Part shown: piece by piece, positions 8,824-15,242 of the stretch | Layout of the letters: each line of letters starts with the position of its first letter | How positions within the stretch are numbered: position 1 is the stretch's first letter | Source: a phage | Reading direction: 5' to 3' (one strand) | Length of the DNA stretch: 48,914 nt | Sequence record: PZ445533.1 | Program-made: the position numbers and the translations under genes | The notes under the pieces: model-generated | Databases searched by the model: none | The model's input: only the letters and a program-made list of their open reading frames with translations | What the model was told of the DNA's origin: nothing

Positions 8824-9214
8824 TTTAATGTTAGCGGCAAGAAAGGCGCTGGCGGAGGAATATGAATCACGATTCAAGATCGCCTATGAAAACGTTGATT
8901 TTGTTCCGCCTGGTGATGGTTCGATGTGGTTAAAATTTGACTACATGGAAGCCGACACAGATCGCATATCTCTTGATAGAAAATGCGTTTCTTATATCGG
9001 ATTGGTTCAGGTTGGAATTGTTATGCCTCCTGGCGGCGGCACTGATAAAGCGCGTTTGCTGGCTAAAGAGATTGCGAGATTTTTCTATGATGGTAGAATG
9101 TTTGAAACTGGCTATATTAGCGAGGGGGCAAACGTCCACGCATTACTAAAAAGTGAAACAGGTTGGTTCTTACCGATACGTTTCAGTGTTAGGCTTGACA
9201 CAAAGGAGGAATAA
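8813..9214 (+). CDS. Tail terminator-like protein (putative)
   Basis: 133 aa ORF overlapping upstream stop; synteny before major tail gene. Confidence 0.4.
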   Translation: MHYDLMLAARKALAEEYESRFKIAYENVDFVPPGDGSMWLKFDYMEADTDRISLDRKCVSYIGLVQVGIVMPPGGGTDKARLLAKEIARFFYDGRMFETGYISEGANVHALLKSETGWFLPIRFSVRLDTKEE

Positions 9215-9216
9215 TC

Positions 9217-9879
9217 ATGCACTTGCCTAATGGTTCTCAAATTTTCATCGGCGTTAATATGGGTGAGCCAATTAGCGCGACTCAAATCAGCAATGCTGAT
9301 AATCCTGTTTTTACAACCGAAAACACTCAAAGCATCAAAAAAGGCGCTTATGTTCTTATTGAAACATCTTCTTGGGGCAAACTTGTTAGTCGAGTGCTTC
9401 GAGTTAAGGAAGTATCAGATAATGCAAGTGTTACTCTTGAGGGTGTTAGCACTAAAGATACAAACGTATTTCCAGAAGGACAGAACACAGCAACTTTCCG
9501 AGAAGTGAAATCTTGGGTAGAGGTTCCTTGCGTACAGGATCTTGCGCAGGACGGCGGCGAGCAACAGTATTACACTTATCAGTGTTTGGCTGATGACCAG
9601 GAGCAGCAGTTGCCGACCTACAAGAGCGCGGTTTATCTTACCTACACTTTCGCTCATGAATATGATAACCCGATTTATCCGATCTTGCGCGAGGCTGAGG
9701 AATCCGGCGACGTAACCGCTTTGCGTATGTACGTGCCGAAAGCTAAAGAGATGCGTTGCTGGGCTGGCGTATTGTCTTTTAATGACATTCCGCAAACAAC
9801 TATGAACGAAATGGAAACTGTTTCCCTTTCTGTATCTCTGAAAGGCCGATTCACGTTCTTACCTTCCGACGTTAAGTAA
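9217..9879 (+). CDS. Major tail protein (putative)
   Basis: 220 aa, AGGAGG RBS, followed by strong terminator and then chaperone G/GT. Confidence 0.55.
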   Translation: MHLPNGSQIFIGVNMGEPISATQISNADNPVFTTENTQSIKKGAYVLIETSSWGKLVSRVLRVKEVSDNASVTLEGVSTKDTNVFPEGQNTATFREVKSWVEVPCVQDLAQDGGEQQYYTYQCLADDQEQQLPTYKSAVYLTYTFAHEYDNPIYPILREAEESGDVTALRMYVPKAKEMRCWAGVLSFNDIPQTTMNEMETVSLSVSLKGRFTFLPSDVK

Positions 9880-9884
9880 AACAA

Positions 9885-9906
9885 GGGGCGTTGCGCCCCT
9901 TTTTTC
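9885..9906 (+). terminator. Rho-independent terminator after major tail gene
   Basis: GGGGCG TTG CGCCCC plus T-run. Confidence 0.65.
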
Positions 9907-9945
9907 ATTCCTGTAAAATCAATCTATCAAATAAATTAATTCCAC

Positions 9946-9964
9946 TTTTAACAAAAAGTGCTAT
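9946..9964 (-). repeat. Isolated copy of 21-bp box (minus orientation) abutting RBS of chaperone G gene
   Basis: TTTTAACAAAAAGTGCTAT directly followed by AAGGAG and ATG 9979. Confidence 0.5.
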
Positions 9965-9978
9965 AAGGAGATCTTAAG

Positions 9979-10296
9979 ATGGCAAAGATGAAACTAACGT
10001 TAGGCCCACTGCCTGATTTTAAGCTGCCTGTTTCTTTCGTGCTTCCAAATGGTGATGAGCAAGTTATTGTTTTTACCGTGCGCCACAAGAAGGCAAGCGA
10101 AATTCACGAACGATACACGGCAGAAAAGCCGATGAGCGACGTAGAAATGATCACCTTCCTTGCTTCCGGTTGGGATCTGGAAGATGAATTTAACGAGGAA
10201 AACGTTGCTAAATTGCTGGATTATTACCCGTCTGCGTCATTATCGCTGACTGGTCATTATATGAAAGCACTTGCGGGGCAGCGGGTAAAAAACTAA
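9979..10296 (+). CDS. Tail assembly chaperone (G-like)
   Basis: 105 aa acidic ORF immediately upstream of tape measure; ends at slippery A-AAA-AAC. Confidence 0.65.
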   Translation: MAKMKLTLGPLPDFKLPVSFVLPNGDEQVIVFTVRHKKASEIHERYTAEKPMSDVEMITFLASGWDLEDEFNEENVAKLLDYYPSASLSLTGHYMKALAGQRVKN

Positions 10297-10613
10297 AGCG
10301 GGCGGTTTACCTGTTTTACCTCAAGCCGCCAACTGACGCACAATTAGAGGCCGTCGGCCTATCCCGTTCAGACTACGAAGGGGAGGAGCCGCCGGAGGTA
10401 ATTTTTGATGAATCAATGTTTCAATCTTGGGATCTGTTTTGCGCTATGCAGACGCAATGGAGATCGACTAGCGGCAGTGTGTATGGGTTCGACTATAACG
10501 TTTTGCCTATGCTTTTTGACATTTACAAGATTGAGGATCGGGAGATGGCGCTAAATGATTTGCGCATCATGGAACAAAAGGCGCTAGAAATGATTCATTC
10601 AAACAAAACATAA
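9979..10613 (+). CDS. Tail assembly chaperone GT-like fusion produced by programmed -1 frameshift at 10287-10293
   Basis: Slippery heptamer A AAA AAC two codons before the G stop; -1 frame is open from 10293 and runs into ORF 10416-10613. Confidence 0.55.
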
Positions 10614-10652
10614 GCGCCGAGAGGCGCTTTTTTAATATCTGGAGGTTTTAAA

Positions 10653-13334
10653 ATGGCTGAAAAATACGCTGGCCTAACGCTAGGCGTTGACGTGTCGCAG
10701 GTCAACAATGCTGTTAAATCATTGCAGCAATTCAAGAAGGCAAACGACGACGCAAAAAAAAGCGTTAATGAATTTGTTGATTCTGAGGTTGTGGCGCGAC
10801 AGCAAGCAAAACAGTTTGCCGAAGAACTGGCGCGCCAGAAAGCAGAATTTAAGAAAATCCAGGAGTCAATTGATCCCACCGCGTCAAAGATGGATAAGCT
10901 GCGAAAGGCAGCGACACAGCTTGATGCGCTATGGAAAAAGGGCATTGTTCCTGATGAGACTTTTTTTGAGCTTGGATCAATTCTTGAGACGCAGCAAAAC
11001 AAGCTGATCGCAACAAAAAAAGCGATGACGGAGGAAGGCCGCGCGGCGCTTGAGGAATCAAAGAACAAAGCGCGTGCAGCGGAAGAGGCTAAAAAATTCG
11101 TCCAGGCTTTGCGTGAGCAGGAAGAAGCAGCAGGAAAAAGCAAGTCTGAATTGCTGGAAATGAAAGCGGCACAGCTTGGAGTTAGCCAGGAGGCAGCACC
11201 TTACATCGCAAGGCTGAAAGAGCAGGAAAAGCAGATCCAGAAACTTGGGATTTCTACAGGCCAATACAAACAAGCAATGGCGCAATTGCCAATGCAGATC
11301 ACAGACGTGGTGACTTCACTTGCTTCTGGTATGCCAGTTTGGTTGGTCGCAGTCCAGCAGGGTGGACAGATCAAGGATTCTTTTGGTGGTGCATCCAATG
11401 CTTTAAAAGCGTTGCTATCTTTCCTGAATCCGGTAAACGTGGCGTTTGGCTTGCTTTCCGGCACGCTGGCAATTGCTGCATATAATGCCTACAAAGCACA
11501 GACAGAGCTTGAGGCAATTAAAAAAACCGTTCAGGAAACAACTGGCTTGAGTGGTGAGTTTGCCGAAAAGATTGCTATAGGAATCCAGGAGCTTTCCGAC
11601 AAGACAGGCGAAAGCGCCGAAGATCTGGCAAAGGCTTACATAACAACGAAAGACGGCGCGAGCGAGGCGATTAAAAAACTGGTTGACGTTGGGATGACTT
11701 ATGATGACGCAAAAAAGAAAGTCAACGAGTACAAGGGCGCGTCTAGCTTTGTCAGCTTGAATAACGAAATTGCAAACCACAAAAACAAAGTCCTTGAGTT
11801 GGGCGAGTCGTGGTATGAAGTTTTGAAAGCTAAGCGTGATTACGCTTCCCCGTCCGGCGGCCTGTTAGGTAAAGAGCTTGGCTATGTTAATCCTATGCTT
11901 AAGTTTGCACTTAACACTTATGAAGACATTGGAAAGGTCGTAAAAGATGCGAATAAGGACATGGCGGAACGAGCGGAGCGAATCGACAAAGAAAATCTGT
12001 CATTAAACAGAGTGCGAGCGGCGCAAGAGGCTTTAAACAAAGCCATTGAGGATCAGAAGGGCGTGGCGCGTTCGGCTGATGAAGAACTGAAAAAGCGCGC
12101 GGCTGAAAACGTGGAGTTTAGGCGCAAAGAGCTTGAGGAAATCAAGAAGCAGGAGCAGAAAAAGAAAGAGGCTAAAGGTGGAATAGTTCGCGGCCCTACT
12201 GAGCAGCTTGATAAAGAGTTGTACGTTTTAAAGGCGCAACTGGAAACTCTTAAAGAGCATCGCACTGTTAACGATGTTATTTCTCGCCAGCGTAAATCTT
12301 TATGGAGCATCGAAAAGCAGATCGAGATCCTGGAGAATGCGCAGAGCAAGCGTAAATTGACCGGAGCGGAACAGGCGCTACTAAACGAGCAAAAGGCCGT
12401 TCTTGAAATGGCAAGACAAAAAGCTGAGCTAGGGGATCAGATTGTTTTGCAGGAGCGCAAAAACAAGCTGGAGCAAGATAGTCTTAAGTTTATCCGTGAA
12501 ACTGAGGCTGCTATTGATGCGATTGGCCTTAAGCAACTTGGCTACACTGAAAAGCAGATCGAGCGTGAGCTAGAGTTACGCAAGCTGCGCACCGACTACG
12601 AGGCGCAAGGCGGAAGCGTTAGCGATGAAGTTTTTCAGCAAATGGAGGCGAAACTTAAGCTGTATTACCAGGCACAAGACGAGGCGCAAGGCAACTGGTT
12701 AGCCGGAGCAAAGAACGCATGGGAGCTATTCGCGGAAGATGCAAACAATGCCTATGGCAATGTTCAGCAGATCGCAAGCGAGGCGTTAAACGGCCTTACA
12801 AACCAATTAGCGAATTTTATCGCTACTGGCAAGGCAAACTTTAAAGACTTCTCGACGGCTATCATCAAAATGATTATCCAGATGATCACGAAAATGGTCG
12901 TCTTTAATGCGTTATCTGGCCTGATTGGTGGTCAAACCTGGACGATGGGGAGCTTGCTTAAGAATATTGGCGGATTTGCTGGCGGTGGATACACTGGAGA
13001 CGGCGGGAAGTATGAGCCAGCCGGAATTGTCCATAAAGGTGAATTTGTCATGACGAAGGAGGCGACGCAGCGTATCGGGGTAGGAAACTTGTACCGCATG
13101 ATGCGAGGCTATGCTAACGGCGGCGTTGTTGGTAGTTCCGGCTATACTGGCGGTGGCGCTGTAACTGGTGGAGCACCTCAATTTAACATCGGCGGGATTG
13201 ATGTTAGCATCACTAACGGAAACGATCCGAAGGGCATCGAAACTGGTGTTAAGATGATCTTTACTGATATGATTAAACGTTCCTGTATGCAGGGCGGCGA
13301 GGTTTACGAATTTGTTATGAGCAAGCGAGGTTGA
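10653..13334 (+). CDS. Tail tape measure protein
   Basis: 893 aa, long charged coiled-coil regions, Gly-rich C-terminal part; canonical position. Confidence 0.85.
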   Translation: MAEKYAGLTLGVDVSQVNNAVKSLQQFKKANDDAKKSVNEFVDSEVVARQQAKQFAEELARQKAEFKKIQESIDPTASKMDKLRKAATQLDALWKKGIVPDETFFELGSILETQQNKLIATKKAMTEEGRAALEESKNKARAAEEAKKFVQALREQEEAAGKSKSELLEMKAAQLGVSQEAAPYIARLKEQEKQIQKLGISTGQYKQAMAQLPMQITDVVTSLASGMPVWLVAVQQGGQIKDSFGGASNALKALLSFLNPVNVAFGLLSGTLAIAAYNAYKAQTELEAIKKTVQETTGLSGEFAEKIAIGIQELSDKTGESAEDLAKAYITTKDGASEAIKKLVDVGMTYDDAKKKVNEYKGASSFVSLNNEIANHKNKVLELGESWYEVLKAKRDYASPSGGLLGKELGYVNPMLKFALNTYEDIGKVVKDANKDMAERAERIDKENLSLNRVRAAQEALNKAIEDQKGVARSADEELKKRAAENVEFRRKELEEIKKQEQKKKEAKGGIVRGPTEQLDKELYVLKAQLETLKEHRTVNDVISRQRKSLWSIEKQIEILENAQSKRKLTGAEQALLNEQKAVLEMARQKAELGDQIVLQERKNKLEQDSLKFIRETEAAIDAIGLKQLGYTEKQIERELELRKLRTDYEAQGGSVSDEVFQQMEAKLKLYYQAQDEAQGNWLAGAKNAWELFAEDANNAYGNVQQIASEALNGLTNQLANFIATGKANFKDFSTAIIKMIIQMITKMVVFNALSGLIGGQTWTMGSLLKNIGGFAGGGYTGDGGKYEPAGIVHKGEFVMTKEATQRIGVGNLYRMMRGYANGGVVGSSGYTGGGAVTGGAPQFNIGGIDVSITNGNDPKGIETGVKMIFTDMIKRSCMQGGEVYEFVMSKRG

Positions 13335-13749: not shown

Positions 13750-14511
13750 ATGGCTAATAAAGAATCAGGTAGAGTTGAATTTGAGAACTGCCTACAAAGT
13801 TTGTACCCAGGCGAAATTATAACGCTTGTAGAGATTGACGGGACGAAGTTCGGAGCAAATATTTACCGATTTCACAATGAGAACATCTCTTATACTGCCG
13901 AAGAATTAATGCAAGCGCAGCAAACCGGAATATTGCCGCCGAAAGATATTATTTTTCAGGGTGAGGTTTACGGAGCGCGGCCTTTCGGTGTGAGCGGTAT
14001 TAACTTCACAAGTAACGGCAGGGCAGATAAGCCTCAGCTTATAGTGTCAAACCTTGACAGCAGGGTGAGCGCCATGATCAGAAATTACAATGGCATGATG
14101 CAAGCAAAGGTGACTTTCTGGATAACGGCAAAGGAATTTATCGGAGAAGGCGGAGCAATCAAAGATGGCGCTTACAGAAAATTGGTTTATTACATTGAGC
14201 GCCCAAGCCAGTACAATAGAGAGATAGCGAAATTTGATCTAACATCGCCTTACGATATGGATGGACTGATGATCCCGCCGCGCATCACTCAAAGCGTTTG
14301 CTATTGGGCGCAAAGGGGATGGTACAGGAGCGGAAAGGGTTGCTCTTATAACGGATCGGCAATGTTCGATAAAGACAATAAGCCAGTAACAGATCCATCA
14401 CAAGACTATTGCGCCGGAACTGTAACGGCTTGCAAATTGAGGTTCGGTCAGCAAAACGAATTGGATTTCGGCGGTTGCGCGGTTGCTTCACTGCTACGGA
14501 GGAATCAATAA
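13750..14511 (+). CDS. Minor tail protein L-like
   Basis: 253 aa; C-terminal conserved Cys cluster as in lambda gpL; synteny. Confidence 0.6.
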   Translation: MANKESGRVEFENCLQSLYPGEIITLVEIDGTKFGANIYRFHNENISYTAEELMQAQQTGILPPKDIIFQGEVYGARPFGVSGINFTSNGRADKPQLIVSNLDSRVSAMIRNYNGMMQAKVTFWITAKEFIGEGGAIKDGAYRKLVYYIERPSQYNREIAKFDLTSPYDMDGLMIPPRITQSVCYWAQRGWYRSGKGCSYNGSAMFDKDNKPVTDPSQDYCAGTVTACKLRFGQQNELDFGGCAVASLLRRNQ

Positions 14512-15242
14512 TGATTAGTGCAAAAATTAAACTTGAAATAATGCAGCACGTTAAAGAGGAATACCCTAAAGAGGCTTGCGGCGTCATAACTCAAAAGTCA
14601 CGGGTACAGAAATATCACCGCATAACCAACGTGCATGACGATCCAGAAAATCATTTTGAAATGGACGCCGTAGAATACGCTGAATCGCTCGACAAAGGCG
14701 AATTAATCGCGGTGGTGCATTCCCATTGCGGGGATGGTGCTAGCACGATACCGAGCGCGCACGACTCATGTATGTGCGATGAAATGGGTGTGTCGTGGAT
14801 TATAGTGTCATGGCCCGAAGGTGATATGAGAATTGTCGAGCCGCAGGAGAGGCCGCTTATCGGTCGCCCGTGGTCGCTGGGGTCGTTCGATTGCTGGGGT
14901 CTTATCATGGCATGGCATAAACAGCACGGAGTAGTATTGAATGACTTCCGAAAGCCTTACGAGTGGTGGAAGTCAGAATATGGTGAAAATCTTTACCAGG
15001 ATAATTATTTGAAAGAGGGATTTGTTGAAACTAACGAGCCTCCAAAACCTGGTGATATGGTGATTATGCAGCTATCATCGCCAGTCTGGAATCATGCGGG
15101 GATTTATTTGGGTAACAATCAGCTATTACATCATGCGTTTGGAAAGCTATCTCGCATTGACTTGTATTCTGGATGGTATCAGGAGCACACTGTAAAAATT
15201 TGCCGACATAAGGATCTGAAATATGACATTGAAAGTAATTAA
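14511..15242 (+). CDS. Tail tip assembly protein K-like (JAB/MPN + NlpC/P60 domains)
   Basis: JAMM-like HSHCGDG...S..HD motif and NlpC/P60-type Cys (DCWGL) with downstream His; TAATG overlap with L. Confidence 0.75.
   Translation: MISAKIKLEIMQHVKEEYPKEACGVITQKSRVQKYHRITNVHDDPENHFEMDAVEYAESLDKGELIAVVHSHCGDGASTIPSAHDSCMCDEMGVSWIIVSWPEGDMRIVEPQERPLIGRPWSLGSFDCWGLIMAWHKQHGVVLNDFRKPYEWWKSEYGENLYQDNYLKEGFVETNEPPKPGDMVIMQLSSPVWNHAGIYLGNNQLLHHAFGKLSRIDLYSGWYQEHTVKICRHKDLKYDIESN

What the first reader, a model, noticed from the sequence alone, without database searches (positions are those of the whole stretch)
10285..10296. Programmed -1 ribosomal frameshift site in the tail assembly chaperone (G/GT)
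The chaperone ORF ends ...GTA AAA AAC TAA; the heptamer A AAA AAC (10287-10293) is a classical slippery site. I verified that the -1 frame from 10293 is open and continuous with ORF 10416-10613, giving a GT-like fusion, as conserved in long-tailed phages.
Basis: partly seen in the sequence, partly recalled or inferred. Interest (0 to 1): 0.35.

Follow-up and report, generated by a model that had tools for sequence, protein, structure and literature searches.

The report
Tail chaperone −1 frameshift site, T1-like phage

Summary
ORF 9979-10296 ends GTA AAA AAC TAA, and the in-frame heptamer A AAA AAC lies at 10287-10293. The −1 frame is open from 10212 to 10613 and has no ATG/GTG/TTG before 10416.

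The window is a Warwickvirus (Drexlerviridae, T1-like), 99.8% identical to phage orkinos over this stretch. The ORF is a Pfam Phage_TAC_4 tail assembly chaperone, placed between the tail tube and tape measure genes. The −1 extension is DUF1799, and one PHROG profile spans both parts.

In 18 of 21 GenBank relatives and 66 of 80 viral-metagenome loci (G part down to 31% identity), A AAA AAC directly abuts the stop codon. Other clades carry G GGA AAC or A-AAA/A-AAG motifs at the same position. The start-less 40-codon bridge evolves as coding sequence only in the −1 frame (pN/pS 0.29 versus 1.4-1.6).

A hairpin 7 nt downstream is favoured by synonymous codon choice in this clade but is not universal.

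Phage TLS and Klebsiella phage Sushi already carry the joined CDS, and papers on phages Stevie, Skenny and U136B describe the frameshift. The nearest GenBank records simply omit the join. No protein-level evidence was available.

The parts
9217..9879 (+). Major tail tube protein gene (context: upstream neighbour)
   Evidence: Pfam Phage_tail_3 PF08813, E = 4.5e-62. Annotated as major tail protein in relatives.
9883..9901 (+). Terminator-like GC hairpin followed by a T-run, between the tube gene and the chaperone gene
   Evidence: Consensus scan: 8-bp stem, 6 GC pairs, T-run. A terminator is annotated at the equivalent place in phage Sushi. Function is inferred.
9965..9970 (+). Shine-Dalgarno AAGGAG, 8 nt upstream of ATG 9979
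   Evidence: Read directly from the sequence.
9979..10296 (+). G-like tail assembly (tape measure) chaperone ORF, 105 aa: the zero-frame product
   Evidence: Pfam Phage_TAC_4 PF08748, E = 5.2e-31, full length. PHROG 17368 positions 1-107. Annotated 'tape measure chaperone' in orkinos, JLBYU19 and PeterMerian.
10287..10293 (+). Slippery heptamer A AAA AAC (X XXY YYZ in the zero frame): the proposed -1 shift site
   Evidence: Identical in 84 homologous loci (65 distinct contexts). The preceding codon varies (GAA, GTA, GCA, ACA) but always ends in A.
10294..10296 (+). Zero-frame stop codon TAA directly abutting the heptamer
   Evidence: In all 65 distinct contexts the heptamer is followed at once by TAA (35) or TGA (30), never by TAG or a sense codon.
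10301..10330 (+). Hairpin GGGCGGUU-(14 nt)-AAGCCGCC starting 7 nt after the heptamer: candidate frameshift stimulator
   Evidence: MFE -13.2 kcal/mol. z = -2.7 against synonymous recodings that keep the -1-frame protein; z = -3.5 to -5.8 in Tempevirinae/Tunavirinae relatives. 72% of cells paired against 27-47% in slid controls, with 3 of the 8 core-stem pairs showing compensatory changes. Not universal in the family, and no RNAalifold consensus.
10293..10613 (+). -1-frame extension (T-like part), 106 codons plus stop. 10293-10415 is the bridge without a start codon; 10416-10613 is the ORF annotated separately in GenBank relatives
   Evidence: Pfam DUF1799 PF08809, E = 1.5e-12, on extension residues 23-101. 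PHROG 17368 positions 109-211; the bridge alone scores E = 3.7e-14. Bridge pN/pS is 0.29 in this frame against 1.42 and 1.58 in the others, with 0 stops in 10 genomes. Protein conservation begins at residue 1, LKRAVYL.
10612..10629 (+). Terminator-like hairpin followed by a T-run, right after the -1-frame stop and before the tape measure gene
   Evidence: Consensus scan: 7-bp stem, 5 GC pairs. A terminator is annotated at the equivalent position in Sushi. Function is inferred.
10653..13334 (+). Tape measure protein gene (context: downstream neighbour), 893 aa
   Evidence: Pfam TMP_2 PF06791, E = 5.7e-36, and Tape_meas_lam_C PF09718, E = 1.9e-22.

Best explanation
The site is a programmed -1 ribosomal frameshift in the tail assembly (tape measure) chaperone gene of a T1-like siphophage. 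Most ribosomes translate 9979-10293 and terminate at TAA 10294-10296, giving the 105-aa chaperone (the G analogue). A minority slip back one base on A AAA AAC: tRNA-Lys moves from AAA 10288-10290 to AAA 10287-10289, and tRNA-Asn moves from AAC 10291-10293 to AAA 10290-10292. They resume at CTA 10293-10295 and read on to 10610. The product is a 211-aa fusion (...AGQRVKN-LKRAVYL...) that carries the DUF1799 'T-like' domain.

By analogy with lambda G/GT, both proteins would coat the tape measure protein. The rare T-like domain would recruit the tail tube protein, so that one gene yields a fixed G:GT ratio. The stop codon directly 3' of the heptamer and the hairpin 7 nt downstream probably raise or tune the shift frequency.

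Shown here: sequence geometry, family membership, conservation of the motif, and -1-frame coding of the start-less bridge. Inferred: that the shift is ribosomal, its efficiency, the roles of the stop codon and hairpin, and the assembly function of the two proteins.
For: Geometry.

Gene order and families: tube PF08813, chaperone PF08748 (E = 5e-31), DUF1799 (E = 1.5e-12), and a lambda-H-like tape measure followed by M- and L-like genes.

Fusion-length relatives: one PHROG profile (17368, 213 positions) matches G at positions 1-107 and the extension at 109-211. The bridge alone scores E = 3.7e-14.

No independent start: the -1 frame has no ATG/GTG/TTG between the stop that ends at 10211 and 10416. 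Met42 (ATG 10416) is absent in Sushi, AV129, LF82-40, KLB16 and YMC11. GGAGG 10394-10398 lies 17 nt from that ATG.

Coding signal in the bridge: pN/pS is 0.29 in the -1 frame against 1.42 and 1.58 in the other two frames. 39 of 40 third positions vary, and none of 10 genomes has a stop there.

Width of the two-frame layout: 1,086 of 1,129 matching phage records cover at least 80% of the fusion, and all 60 rows shown are in two pieces.

Motif conservation: A AAA AAC plus stop occurs in 18 of 21 GenBank loci and 66 of 80 IMG/VR loci, with the G part down to 31% identity. In Dhillonvirus the frame overlap is exactly the 7-nt heptamer. The Pseudomonas phage has G GGA AAC TGA at the same place.

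Hairpin.

Precedent: joined CDS in TLS (tfmS) and Sushi. Frameshift reported for the T1-like phages Stevie (PMC4319613), Skenny (PMC6763657) and U136B (PMC8104045). A_AAA_AAC is the proven IS1 shift site in E. coli (PMC4066793). Lambda G/GT mechanism: PMC5009743.
Against: There is no protein-level evidence: no mass spectrometry, reporter assay or ribosome profiling, and the TLS joined CDS is itself marked 'non-experimental evidence'. In E. coli, A_AAA_AAC is much less shift-prone than A_AAA_AAG (PMC5009743), so efficiency may be low, although lambda also works at about 1 in 30. The hairpin is not significant against dinucleotide shuffles of the window's own sequence (z = -1.3). It is missing in Braunvirinae/Rogunavirinae-type relatives, and RNAalifold finds no family-wide consensus. 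No conserved upstream Shine-Dalgarno-like stimulator is present. The closest GenBank records annotate two separate CDSs, or only the first.
Confidence: 0.9

Rival explanations
1. There are two independent genes. The 65-aa ORF 10416-10613 is translated from its own ATG, as most GenBank records of close relatives annotate it, and no fusion is made.
For: ATG 10416 exists and a Met is present at that position in most Drexlerviridae. JLBYU19, PeterMerian, pSf-1 and others annotate a separate CDS there.
Against: The 40 codons upstream of that ATG are under purifying selection in the same frame (pN/pS 0.29, no stops in 10 genomes). They match the PHROG fusion profile on their own (E = 3.7e-14). DUF1799 begins 19 residues before the ATG. 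The Met is absent in Sushi, AV129, LF82-40, KLB16 and YMC11, and the annotated start positions differ among relatives. GGAGG lies 17 nt upstream, too far for a Shine-Dalgarno.
Confidence: 0.04
2. The fusion arises by transcriptional slippage. RNA polymerase adds one extra A in the A6 run (10287-10292), so a fraction of mRNAs encodes the fusion in frame, with junction ...VKK-LKR... instead of ...VKN-LKR...
For: The site is a homopolymeric A run: A6 here and A7 in the GAA AAA AAC clades. One metagenomic relative (L057) has A8, which fuses both parts in frame and shows the run is prone to indels. Inserting one A would give the same downstream frame (inference).
Against: Runs of 6-7 A are shorter than those known to give useful slippage by bacterial RNA polymerase, typically 9 or more (my own knowledge of the field, not checked against a paper here). 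Homologous sites in other clades have no long run yet keep a ribosomal slip motif: G GGA AAC in the Pseudomonas phage, and GCA AAA GTY, GCA AAG GTC or TCA AAG GAT elsewhere. The C at heptamer position 7 and the adjacent stop are invariant, which the ribosomal model explains and the polymerase model does not.
Confidence: 0.04
3. The match is a coincidence: a chance slippery-looking string at the end of an ORF, with no recoding.
For: AAAAAAC is not enriched in the window: 26 found against 21 +/- 4 expected.
Against: The heptamer is conserved base for base, with its phase and its adjacency to the stop, in 65 distinct contexts with the G part down to 31% identity. The -1-frame bridge shows coding selection. 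Fusion-length homologues exist in PHROGs.
Confidence: 0.01

Closest known systems
Phage TLS tfmA/tfmS (AY308796), with Klebsiella phage Sushi CPT_Sushi14/15 and Citrobacter phage Stevie: tape measure chaperones of T1-like phages (Drexlerviridae)
   Same: Same protein families, with 63% (TLS) and 49% (Sushi) identity over the fusion. Same gene order. TLS has the identical GTA AAA AAC TAA site. A joined CDS is annotated in TLS and Sushi, and the Stevie paper states the frameshift (PMC4319613).
   Different: Essentially nothing for TLS. Sushi and other Webervirus phages use GCA AAA GTY TAA, a single-codon A-AAA slip one codon before the stop, instead of the heptamer. The window's nearest GenBank relatives (orkinos, JLBYU19, PeterMerian) do not annotate the join.
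Bacteriophage lambda G/GT (Levin et al. 1993; Xu et al. 2004, 2013, 2014, as summarised in PMC5009743)
   Same: Two ORFs between the major tail gene and the tape measure gene. [quoted passage not shown] The long form adds a second domain. The rest of the tail module is lambda-like: H-type tape measure, then M and L. The presumed role is a fixed G:GT ratio.
   Different: Lambda's heptamer is G GGA AAG; here it is A AAA AAC, directly abutting the stop. The proteins fall in Pfam Phage_TAC_4 and DUF1799, and no other Pfam family was reported at E <= 0.1, so lambda's own G and T families are not matched by sequence. The lambda products are proven experimentally; these are not.
IS1 insA-insB' -1 frameshift (Escoubas et al. 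1991, cited in PMC4066793)
   Same: The same heptamer, A AAA AAC, working in the same host (E. coli) at low efficiency, with no established stimulatory structure.
   Different: IS1 makes a transposase, not a structural chaperone. The protein context is unrelated. Here a stop codon abuts the heptamer and this clade has a hairpin 7 nt downstream.
E. coli dnaX gamma/tau frameshift (A AAA AAG, with an upstream Shine-Dalgarno-like element and a downstream hairpin)
   Same: A lysine-codon-based A-rich heptamer with a downstream hairpin at a similar spacing.
   Different: dnaX ends in AAG, which is far more shift-prone in E. coli than AAC (PMC5009743). It has an upstream SD-like stimulator, and none is conserved here. 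The dnaX shift product is the shorter protein.

Membership tests
Lambda-type G/GT tail assembly chaperone frameshift (Xu, Hendrix & Duda 2004 class) | Two ORFs located between the major tail (tube) gene and the tape measure gene | tested here: met
   Tube PF08813 at 9217-9879, chaperone at 9979-10296, -1 ORF to 10613, tape measure PF06791/PF09718 at 10653-13334.
Lambda-type G/GT tail assembly chaperone frameshift (Xu, Hendrix & Duda 2004 class) | The second ORF is in the -1 frame, overlaps the end of the first, and has no start of its own | tested here: met
   The -1 frame is open from 10212 to 10613, with no ATG/GTG/TTG before 10416. Met42 is not conserved. The bridge is coding in the -1 frame.
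Lambda-type G/GT tail assembly chaperone frameshift (Xu, Hendrix & Duda 2004 class) | An in-phase slippery sequence lies inside the overlap | tested here: met
   A AAA AAC at 10287-10293 is the only in-frame X XXY YYZ in the 82-nt overlap.
Lambda-type G/GT tail assembly chaperone frameshift (Xu, Hendrix & Duda 2004 class) | The frameshift arrangement is conserved among relatives despite protein divergence | tested here: met
   18 of 21 GenBank loci and 66 of 80 IMG/VR loci keep the heptamer plus stop. T lies in the -1 frame in 78 of 80. Alternative slippery motifs occupy the same position in other clades.
Lambda-type G/GT tail assembly chaperone frameshift (Xu, Hendrix & Duda 2004 class) | Both the short and the frameshifted long protein are made, at a low fixed ratio, and both are needed for tail assembly | not testable with these tools
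   This needs western blot or mass spectrometry, reporter assays and genetics. The TLS joined CDS is itself flagged non-experimental.
Pfam Phage_TAC_4 (PF08748), tail assembly chaperone | Score above the curated gathering threshold over the full domain | tested here: met
   107.9 bits against a cutoff of 21.1; residues 1-105 match profile positions 1-124 of 124.
Pfam DUF1799 (PF08809; 'TLS TfmB-like') | Score above the curated gathering threshold | tested here: met
   48.0 bits against a cutoff of 26; extension residues 23-101 match profile positions 3-80 of 80.
PHROG 17368 (fusion-length chaperone proteins) | Both halves match one continuous profile in order | tested here: met
   G matches positions 1-107 (E = 1.6e-39) and the extension matches 109-211 (E = 1.8e-52) of 213.
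Lambda's own gpG and gpT sequence families | Detectable sequence match to the Pfam families that contain lambda gpG and gpT | tested here: not met
   At E <= 0.1, Pfam returned only PF08748 and PF08809 for the two parts. It works like lambda G/GT but is not a sequence-level member of lambda's own families. That lambda G and T sit in other Pfam entries is from my memory; any clan-level relation was not tested.
dnaX-type tripartite frameshift signal | An upstream Shine-Dalgarno-like stimulator about 10 nt 5' of the heptamer | tested here: not met
   The upstream bases follow Ala-Gly-x-Arg codons with variable third positions (GGG, GGA, GGC, GGT). No conserved GGAGG-like element is present.
dnaX-type tripartite frameshift signal | A downstream stimulatory stem-loop 5-9 nt 3' of the heptamer | tested here: inconclusive
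   A hairpin is present at 10301-10330 and is favoured by synonymous codon choice in this clade (z = -2.7, and -3.5 to -5.8 in relatives), with some covariation. It is absent in several clades, and there is no family-wide consensus.

The most novel reading that the evidence does not exclude
The most novel reading still open is that the signal is a three-part 'shifty stop' device rather than a bare heptamer. The stop codon is invariantly adjacent to the heptamer (TAA or TGA, never TAG or a sense codon, in 65 distinct contexts), and where the second extension residue is Arg it is always AGG, never CGN. Slow termination at that stop would give the Lys and Asn tRNAs time to slip, and the clade-specific hairpin would add to the effect. 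The G:GT ratio would then depend on release-factor activity in the host.
Probability: 0.3. Interest if true: 0.3.

Novelty: already known. Interest (0 to 1): 0.1.

Why it matters
The practical value is in annotation. The nearest GenBank genomes (orkinos, JLBYU19, PeterMerian and many pharokka-style records) list either one chaperone or two unrelated small CDSs. They should instead carry a joined ribosomal-slippage CDS of 211 aa: join(9979..10293,10293..10613) in window coordinates.

The biology confirms once more the G/GT rule for long-tailed phages. It also gives a clean comparative data set of 65 distinct contexts. The heptamer, its phase and the adjacent stop are invariant across all 65, and a downstream hairpin comes and goes between clades. 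That set could serve as a natural series for studying what tunes low-level -1 frameshifting in enterobacteria. Nothing here would surprise a specialist.

Tried and rejected
1. Heptamer enrichment. AAAAAAC is not over-represented in the window (26 against 21 +/- 4 expected), so frequency alone gives no support.

2. Family-wide RNA structure. RNAalifold on 12 diverse sequences found no consensus. The window's hairpin is not significant against dinucleotide shuffles (z = -1.3 and -1.1). Only the synonymous-recoding control and the named-structure pair counts gave support, and only for some clades.

3. Known RNA families. Rfam has no match at E <= 1 in 10150-10480.

4. Upstream Shine-Dalgarno-like stimulator. 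None is conserved.

5. NCBIfam. No family matches either part.

6. Solved structures by sequence. Nothing meaningful was found; the best hit has E = 0.58 to an unrelated GTPase.

7. Alternative ORF 10405-10554, in G's zero frame. GGAGG lies 9 nt upstream of its internal ATG at 10408. I rejected it because that frame carries 4-9 stops across the T region in every relative, and its Cys-rich translation looks non-coding.

8. Structure prediction and the large protein-database searches were not run. Family membership was already decisive, and the alignment I had contained sequences that the structure tool does not accept.

9. Loci L046 and L057 looked like exceptions to the -1 rule. On inspection, L046 has the canonical site plus a second unrelated frame break, and L057 has an A8 run. 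Both are probably sequencing errors or decayed copies.

Full report
**Observation.** ORF 9979-10296 starts at an ATG preceded by AAGGAG at 9965-9970. It encodes 105 aa and ends CGG GTA AAA AAC TAA. In that phase, A AAA AAC at 10287-10293 is an X XXY YYZ heptamer, and the stop at 10294-10296 follows it directly. The frame that begins at 10293 (CTA AAG CGG GCG GTT ...) is the -1 frame. It is open from 10212 to the TAA at 10611-10613, and ATG 10416 is in phase with 10293. The ORF list shows 10416 as the first ATG/GTG/TTG in that frame after the upstream stop, so the 41 codons 10293-10415 cannot be reached by ordinary initiation. The heptamer string alone is not unusual: the window holds 26 copies against 21 +/- 4 expected. 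It is, however, the only in-phase heptamer inside the 82-nt overlap of the two frames.

**What the window is.** The stretch 9200-10700 is 99.8% identical to Escherichia phage orkinos and 98-99.8% identical to about 20 other phages of the genus Warwickvirus (Drexlerviridae, Tempevirinae), which are T1-like siphophages. Those records annotate the first ORF as 'tape measure chaperone'. They either omit the second ORF or list 10416-10613 as a separate small CDS. None of the three I inspected has a joined CDS.

**Family membership.**
- The 105-aa protein is a full-length Pfam Phage_TAC_4 tail assembly chaperone (E = 5e-31).
- The -1 extension is DUF1799 (E = 1.5e-12). That match starts at extension residue 23, which is 19 residues upstream of the Met encoded by ATG 10416.
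- The neighbours are the tail tube protein (PF08813) upstream and a lambda-H-like tape measure protein (PF06791 and PF09718) downstream, followed by M-like and L-like genes.
- A single PHROG profile of 213 positions (phrog_17368) matches the chaperone at positions 1-107 and the extension at 109-211. The bridge alone scores E = 3.7e-14. Fusion-length proteins of this family have therefore already been deposited.
- No Pfam family other than these two was reported at E <= 0.1. By sequence this is a sister of lambda G/GT, not a member of lambda's own families.

**Comparative evidence.** A tblastn search with the conceptual 211-aa fusion found 1,129 phage records. Of these, 1,086 cover at least 80% of the query, and all 60 rows shown are in two pieces, meaning two frames. 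I fetched 21 diverse GenBank loci that could be scored and 80 viral-metagenome loci.
- Among the GenBank loci, 18 of 21 have A AAA AAC directly followed by the stop. In Dhillonvirus phages (36-38% identity) the -1 frame opens exactly at the heptamer, so the overlap is 7 nt and the shift can happen nowhere else.
- A Pseudomonas phage has G GGA AAC TGA at the same position. Webervirus phages (Sushi) have GCA AAA GTT TAA, and KLB16 has TCA AAG GAT TAA; both allow a single tRNA-Lys slip.
- Among the IMG/VR loci, T lies in the -1 frame in 78 of 80. Of the 80, 66 have A AAA AAC plus stop, 12 have the Webervirus motif, and one has GCA AAG GTC TAA.
- The two apparent exceptions are a locus with a second, unrelated frame break (L046) and one with an A8 run that fuses the frames (L057). 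Both are probably errors or decay.
- Pooled, this gives 84 loci and 65 distinct contexts. The codon before AAA is GAA, GTA, GCA or ACA, always ending in A. Lys is always AAA and Asn is always AAC. The stop is TAA (35) or TGA (30), never TAG.

These constraints fall on synonymous positions, and the X XXY YYZ rule explains them.

**The bridge is translated in the -1 frame.** The extension aligns as protein from its first residue (L-K/R-R-A-V-Y-L ...) in all 17 sequences compared. The Met at residue 42 is missing in Sushi, AV129, LF82-40, KLB16 and YMC11. Over 40 bridge codons in 10 Drexlerviridae genomes, pN/pS is 0.29 in the -1 frame against 1.42 and 1.58 in the other two frames. 39 of 40 third positions vary, against 24 and 20 for first and second positions. 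The -1 frame has no stop in any genome, whereas the other frames have up to 5. The GGAGG at 10394-10398 is 17 nt from ATG 10416, too far to serve it. Together these results exclude the 'two independent genes' annotation as the main route to the T-like domain.

**Possible stimulators.**
- *The stop codon.* It abuts the heptamer in every context. Where the second extension residue is Arg, its codon is always AGG (25 of 25) and never CGN. That keeps the zero-frame TGA. This pattern fits a 'shifty stop' contribution, a concept listed in PMC5009743, but the contexts are phylogenetically related, so it remains an inference.
- *The hairpin.* A hairpin (10301-10308 paired with 10323-10330) starts 7 nt after the heptamer, with an MFE of -13.2 kcal/mol. 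It is not significant against dinucleotide shuffles (z = -1.3). Against 200 recodings that keep the -1-frame protein, z is -2.7 for the window and -3.5 to -5.8 for Tempevirinae and Tunavirinae relatives. Dhillonvirus, and part of a GC-rich distant clade, form hairpins of different sequence at the same spacing. Braunvirinae, Rogunavirinae and some other loci have none.
- *Pair counts.* On a 12-sequence alignment, 72% of cells are paired against 27-47% for slid controls, and three of the eight core-stem pairs show compensatory changes. RNAalifold finds no family-wide consensus, and Rfam has no match.
- *Upstream element.* No conserved Shine-Dalgarno-like element is present.

I conclude that the hairpin is a probable, clade-level modulator and is not an essential part of the signal.

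**Mechanism and rivals.** The best explanation is tandem -1 slippage of tRNA-Lys and tRNA-Asn on A AAA AAC. It would yield a 211-aa GT-like fusion at low frequency alongside the 105-aa chaperone. The assembly role is that established for lambda G/GT: G and GT bind the tape measure protein, and the T domain recruits the tube protein (PMC5009743). A_AAA_AAC is the proven low-efficiency shift site of IS1 in E. coli (PMC4066793), and it is less slippery there than A_AAA_AAG. That suits a product needed in small amounts.

Transcriptional slippage on the A6-A7 run would give the same frame change with a KK-L junction. It is disfavoured because homologous sites in other clades lack a long run yet keep ribosomal slip motifs, and because the C at position 7 and the adjacent stop are invariant. 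Independent initiation and pure coincidence are excluded by the data on the bridge.

**Comparison with what is known.** Phage TLS, in the same subfamily, carries the identical GTA AAA AAC TAA site and a joined CDS, tfmS. Klebsiella phage Sushi has a joined CDS annotated 'contains TLS TfmB domain'. Genome papers on the T1-like phages Stevie, Skenny and U136B state the frameshift explicitly.

What this analysis adds is modest:
- a correction for the nearest GenBank annotations;
- the finding that heptamer phase and stop adjacency are invariant over 65 contexts;
- evidence for a clade-specific downstream hairpin.

No experimental evidence for the fusion protein was available to me. The decisive tests are a junction or bridge peptide by mass spectrometry and a reporter assay with a synonymous knockout of the heptamer.

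Noticed in passing
window 9883-9901 and 10612-10629: Two GC-rich hairpins, each followed by a T-run (terminator-like), bracket the chaperone gene pair. One follows the tube gene and one precedes the tape measure gene. Phage Sushi has terminators annotated at both equivalent positions. They may act as partial terminators that step down expression from tube to chaperone to tape measure.
   Followed up: partly
window 10394-10410 and ORF 10405-10554: GGAGG lies 9 nt upstream of an ATG at 10408, which opens a 49-aa ORF in the chaperone's zero frame, inside the T-like region. Its translation is Cys-rich and looks non-coding. That frame carries 4-9 stops in every relative examined, so it is probably a chance signal.
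   Followed up: yes
L057 1523-1530 (IMGVR_UViG_2619619144_000009): This relative has an A8 run where its clade has GAA AAA AAC (A7), which puts the G and T parts in one reading frame. A second frame change follows near the end of T. It could be a homopolymer sequencing error, a decaying prophage, or a natural 'GT-only' variant.
   Followed up: partly
L046 about 1500-1620 (IMGVR_UViG_2547132416_000003): The canonical GAA AAA AAC TGA site is present, but the -1 frame hits a stop after about 35 codons and the conserved TQWR region continues in the G frame. This looks like a second indel, from either sequencing error or a pseudogene.
   Followed up: partly
L005 (Sushi), L044-L056, L042, L019 (KLB16): Webervirus and a few other clades replace the heptamer with GCA AAA GTY TAA, GCA AAG GTC TAA or TCA AAG GAT TAA. 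These are A-AAA or A-AAG single-codon slip motifs, with the stop one codon further downstream. The shift motif has therefore been exchanged at least twice within one protein family.
   Followed up: partly
window 10296-10301 and homologous positions: The second or third -1-frame codon after the shift is Arg, encoded by the rare E. coli codons CGG or AGG in nearly all relatives: AAG CGG here, AAA AGG in T1 and pSf-1, CTG AGG in the distant clade. These codons form the 5' arm of the hairpin or preserve the zero-frame stop. Whether slow decoding matters was not examined.
   Followed up: no
window 13750-14511 and 14409-15242: The mechanically listed K-like ORF starts at a TTG that overlaps the L-like gene by about 100 nt. 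Its translation contains 'MISAKIK...' just after the L stop, so the true start is probably that internal ATG. This is an ORF-listing artefact and not a second recoding site.
   Followed up: no
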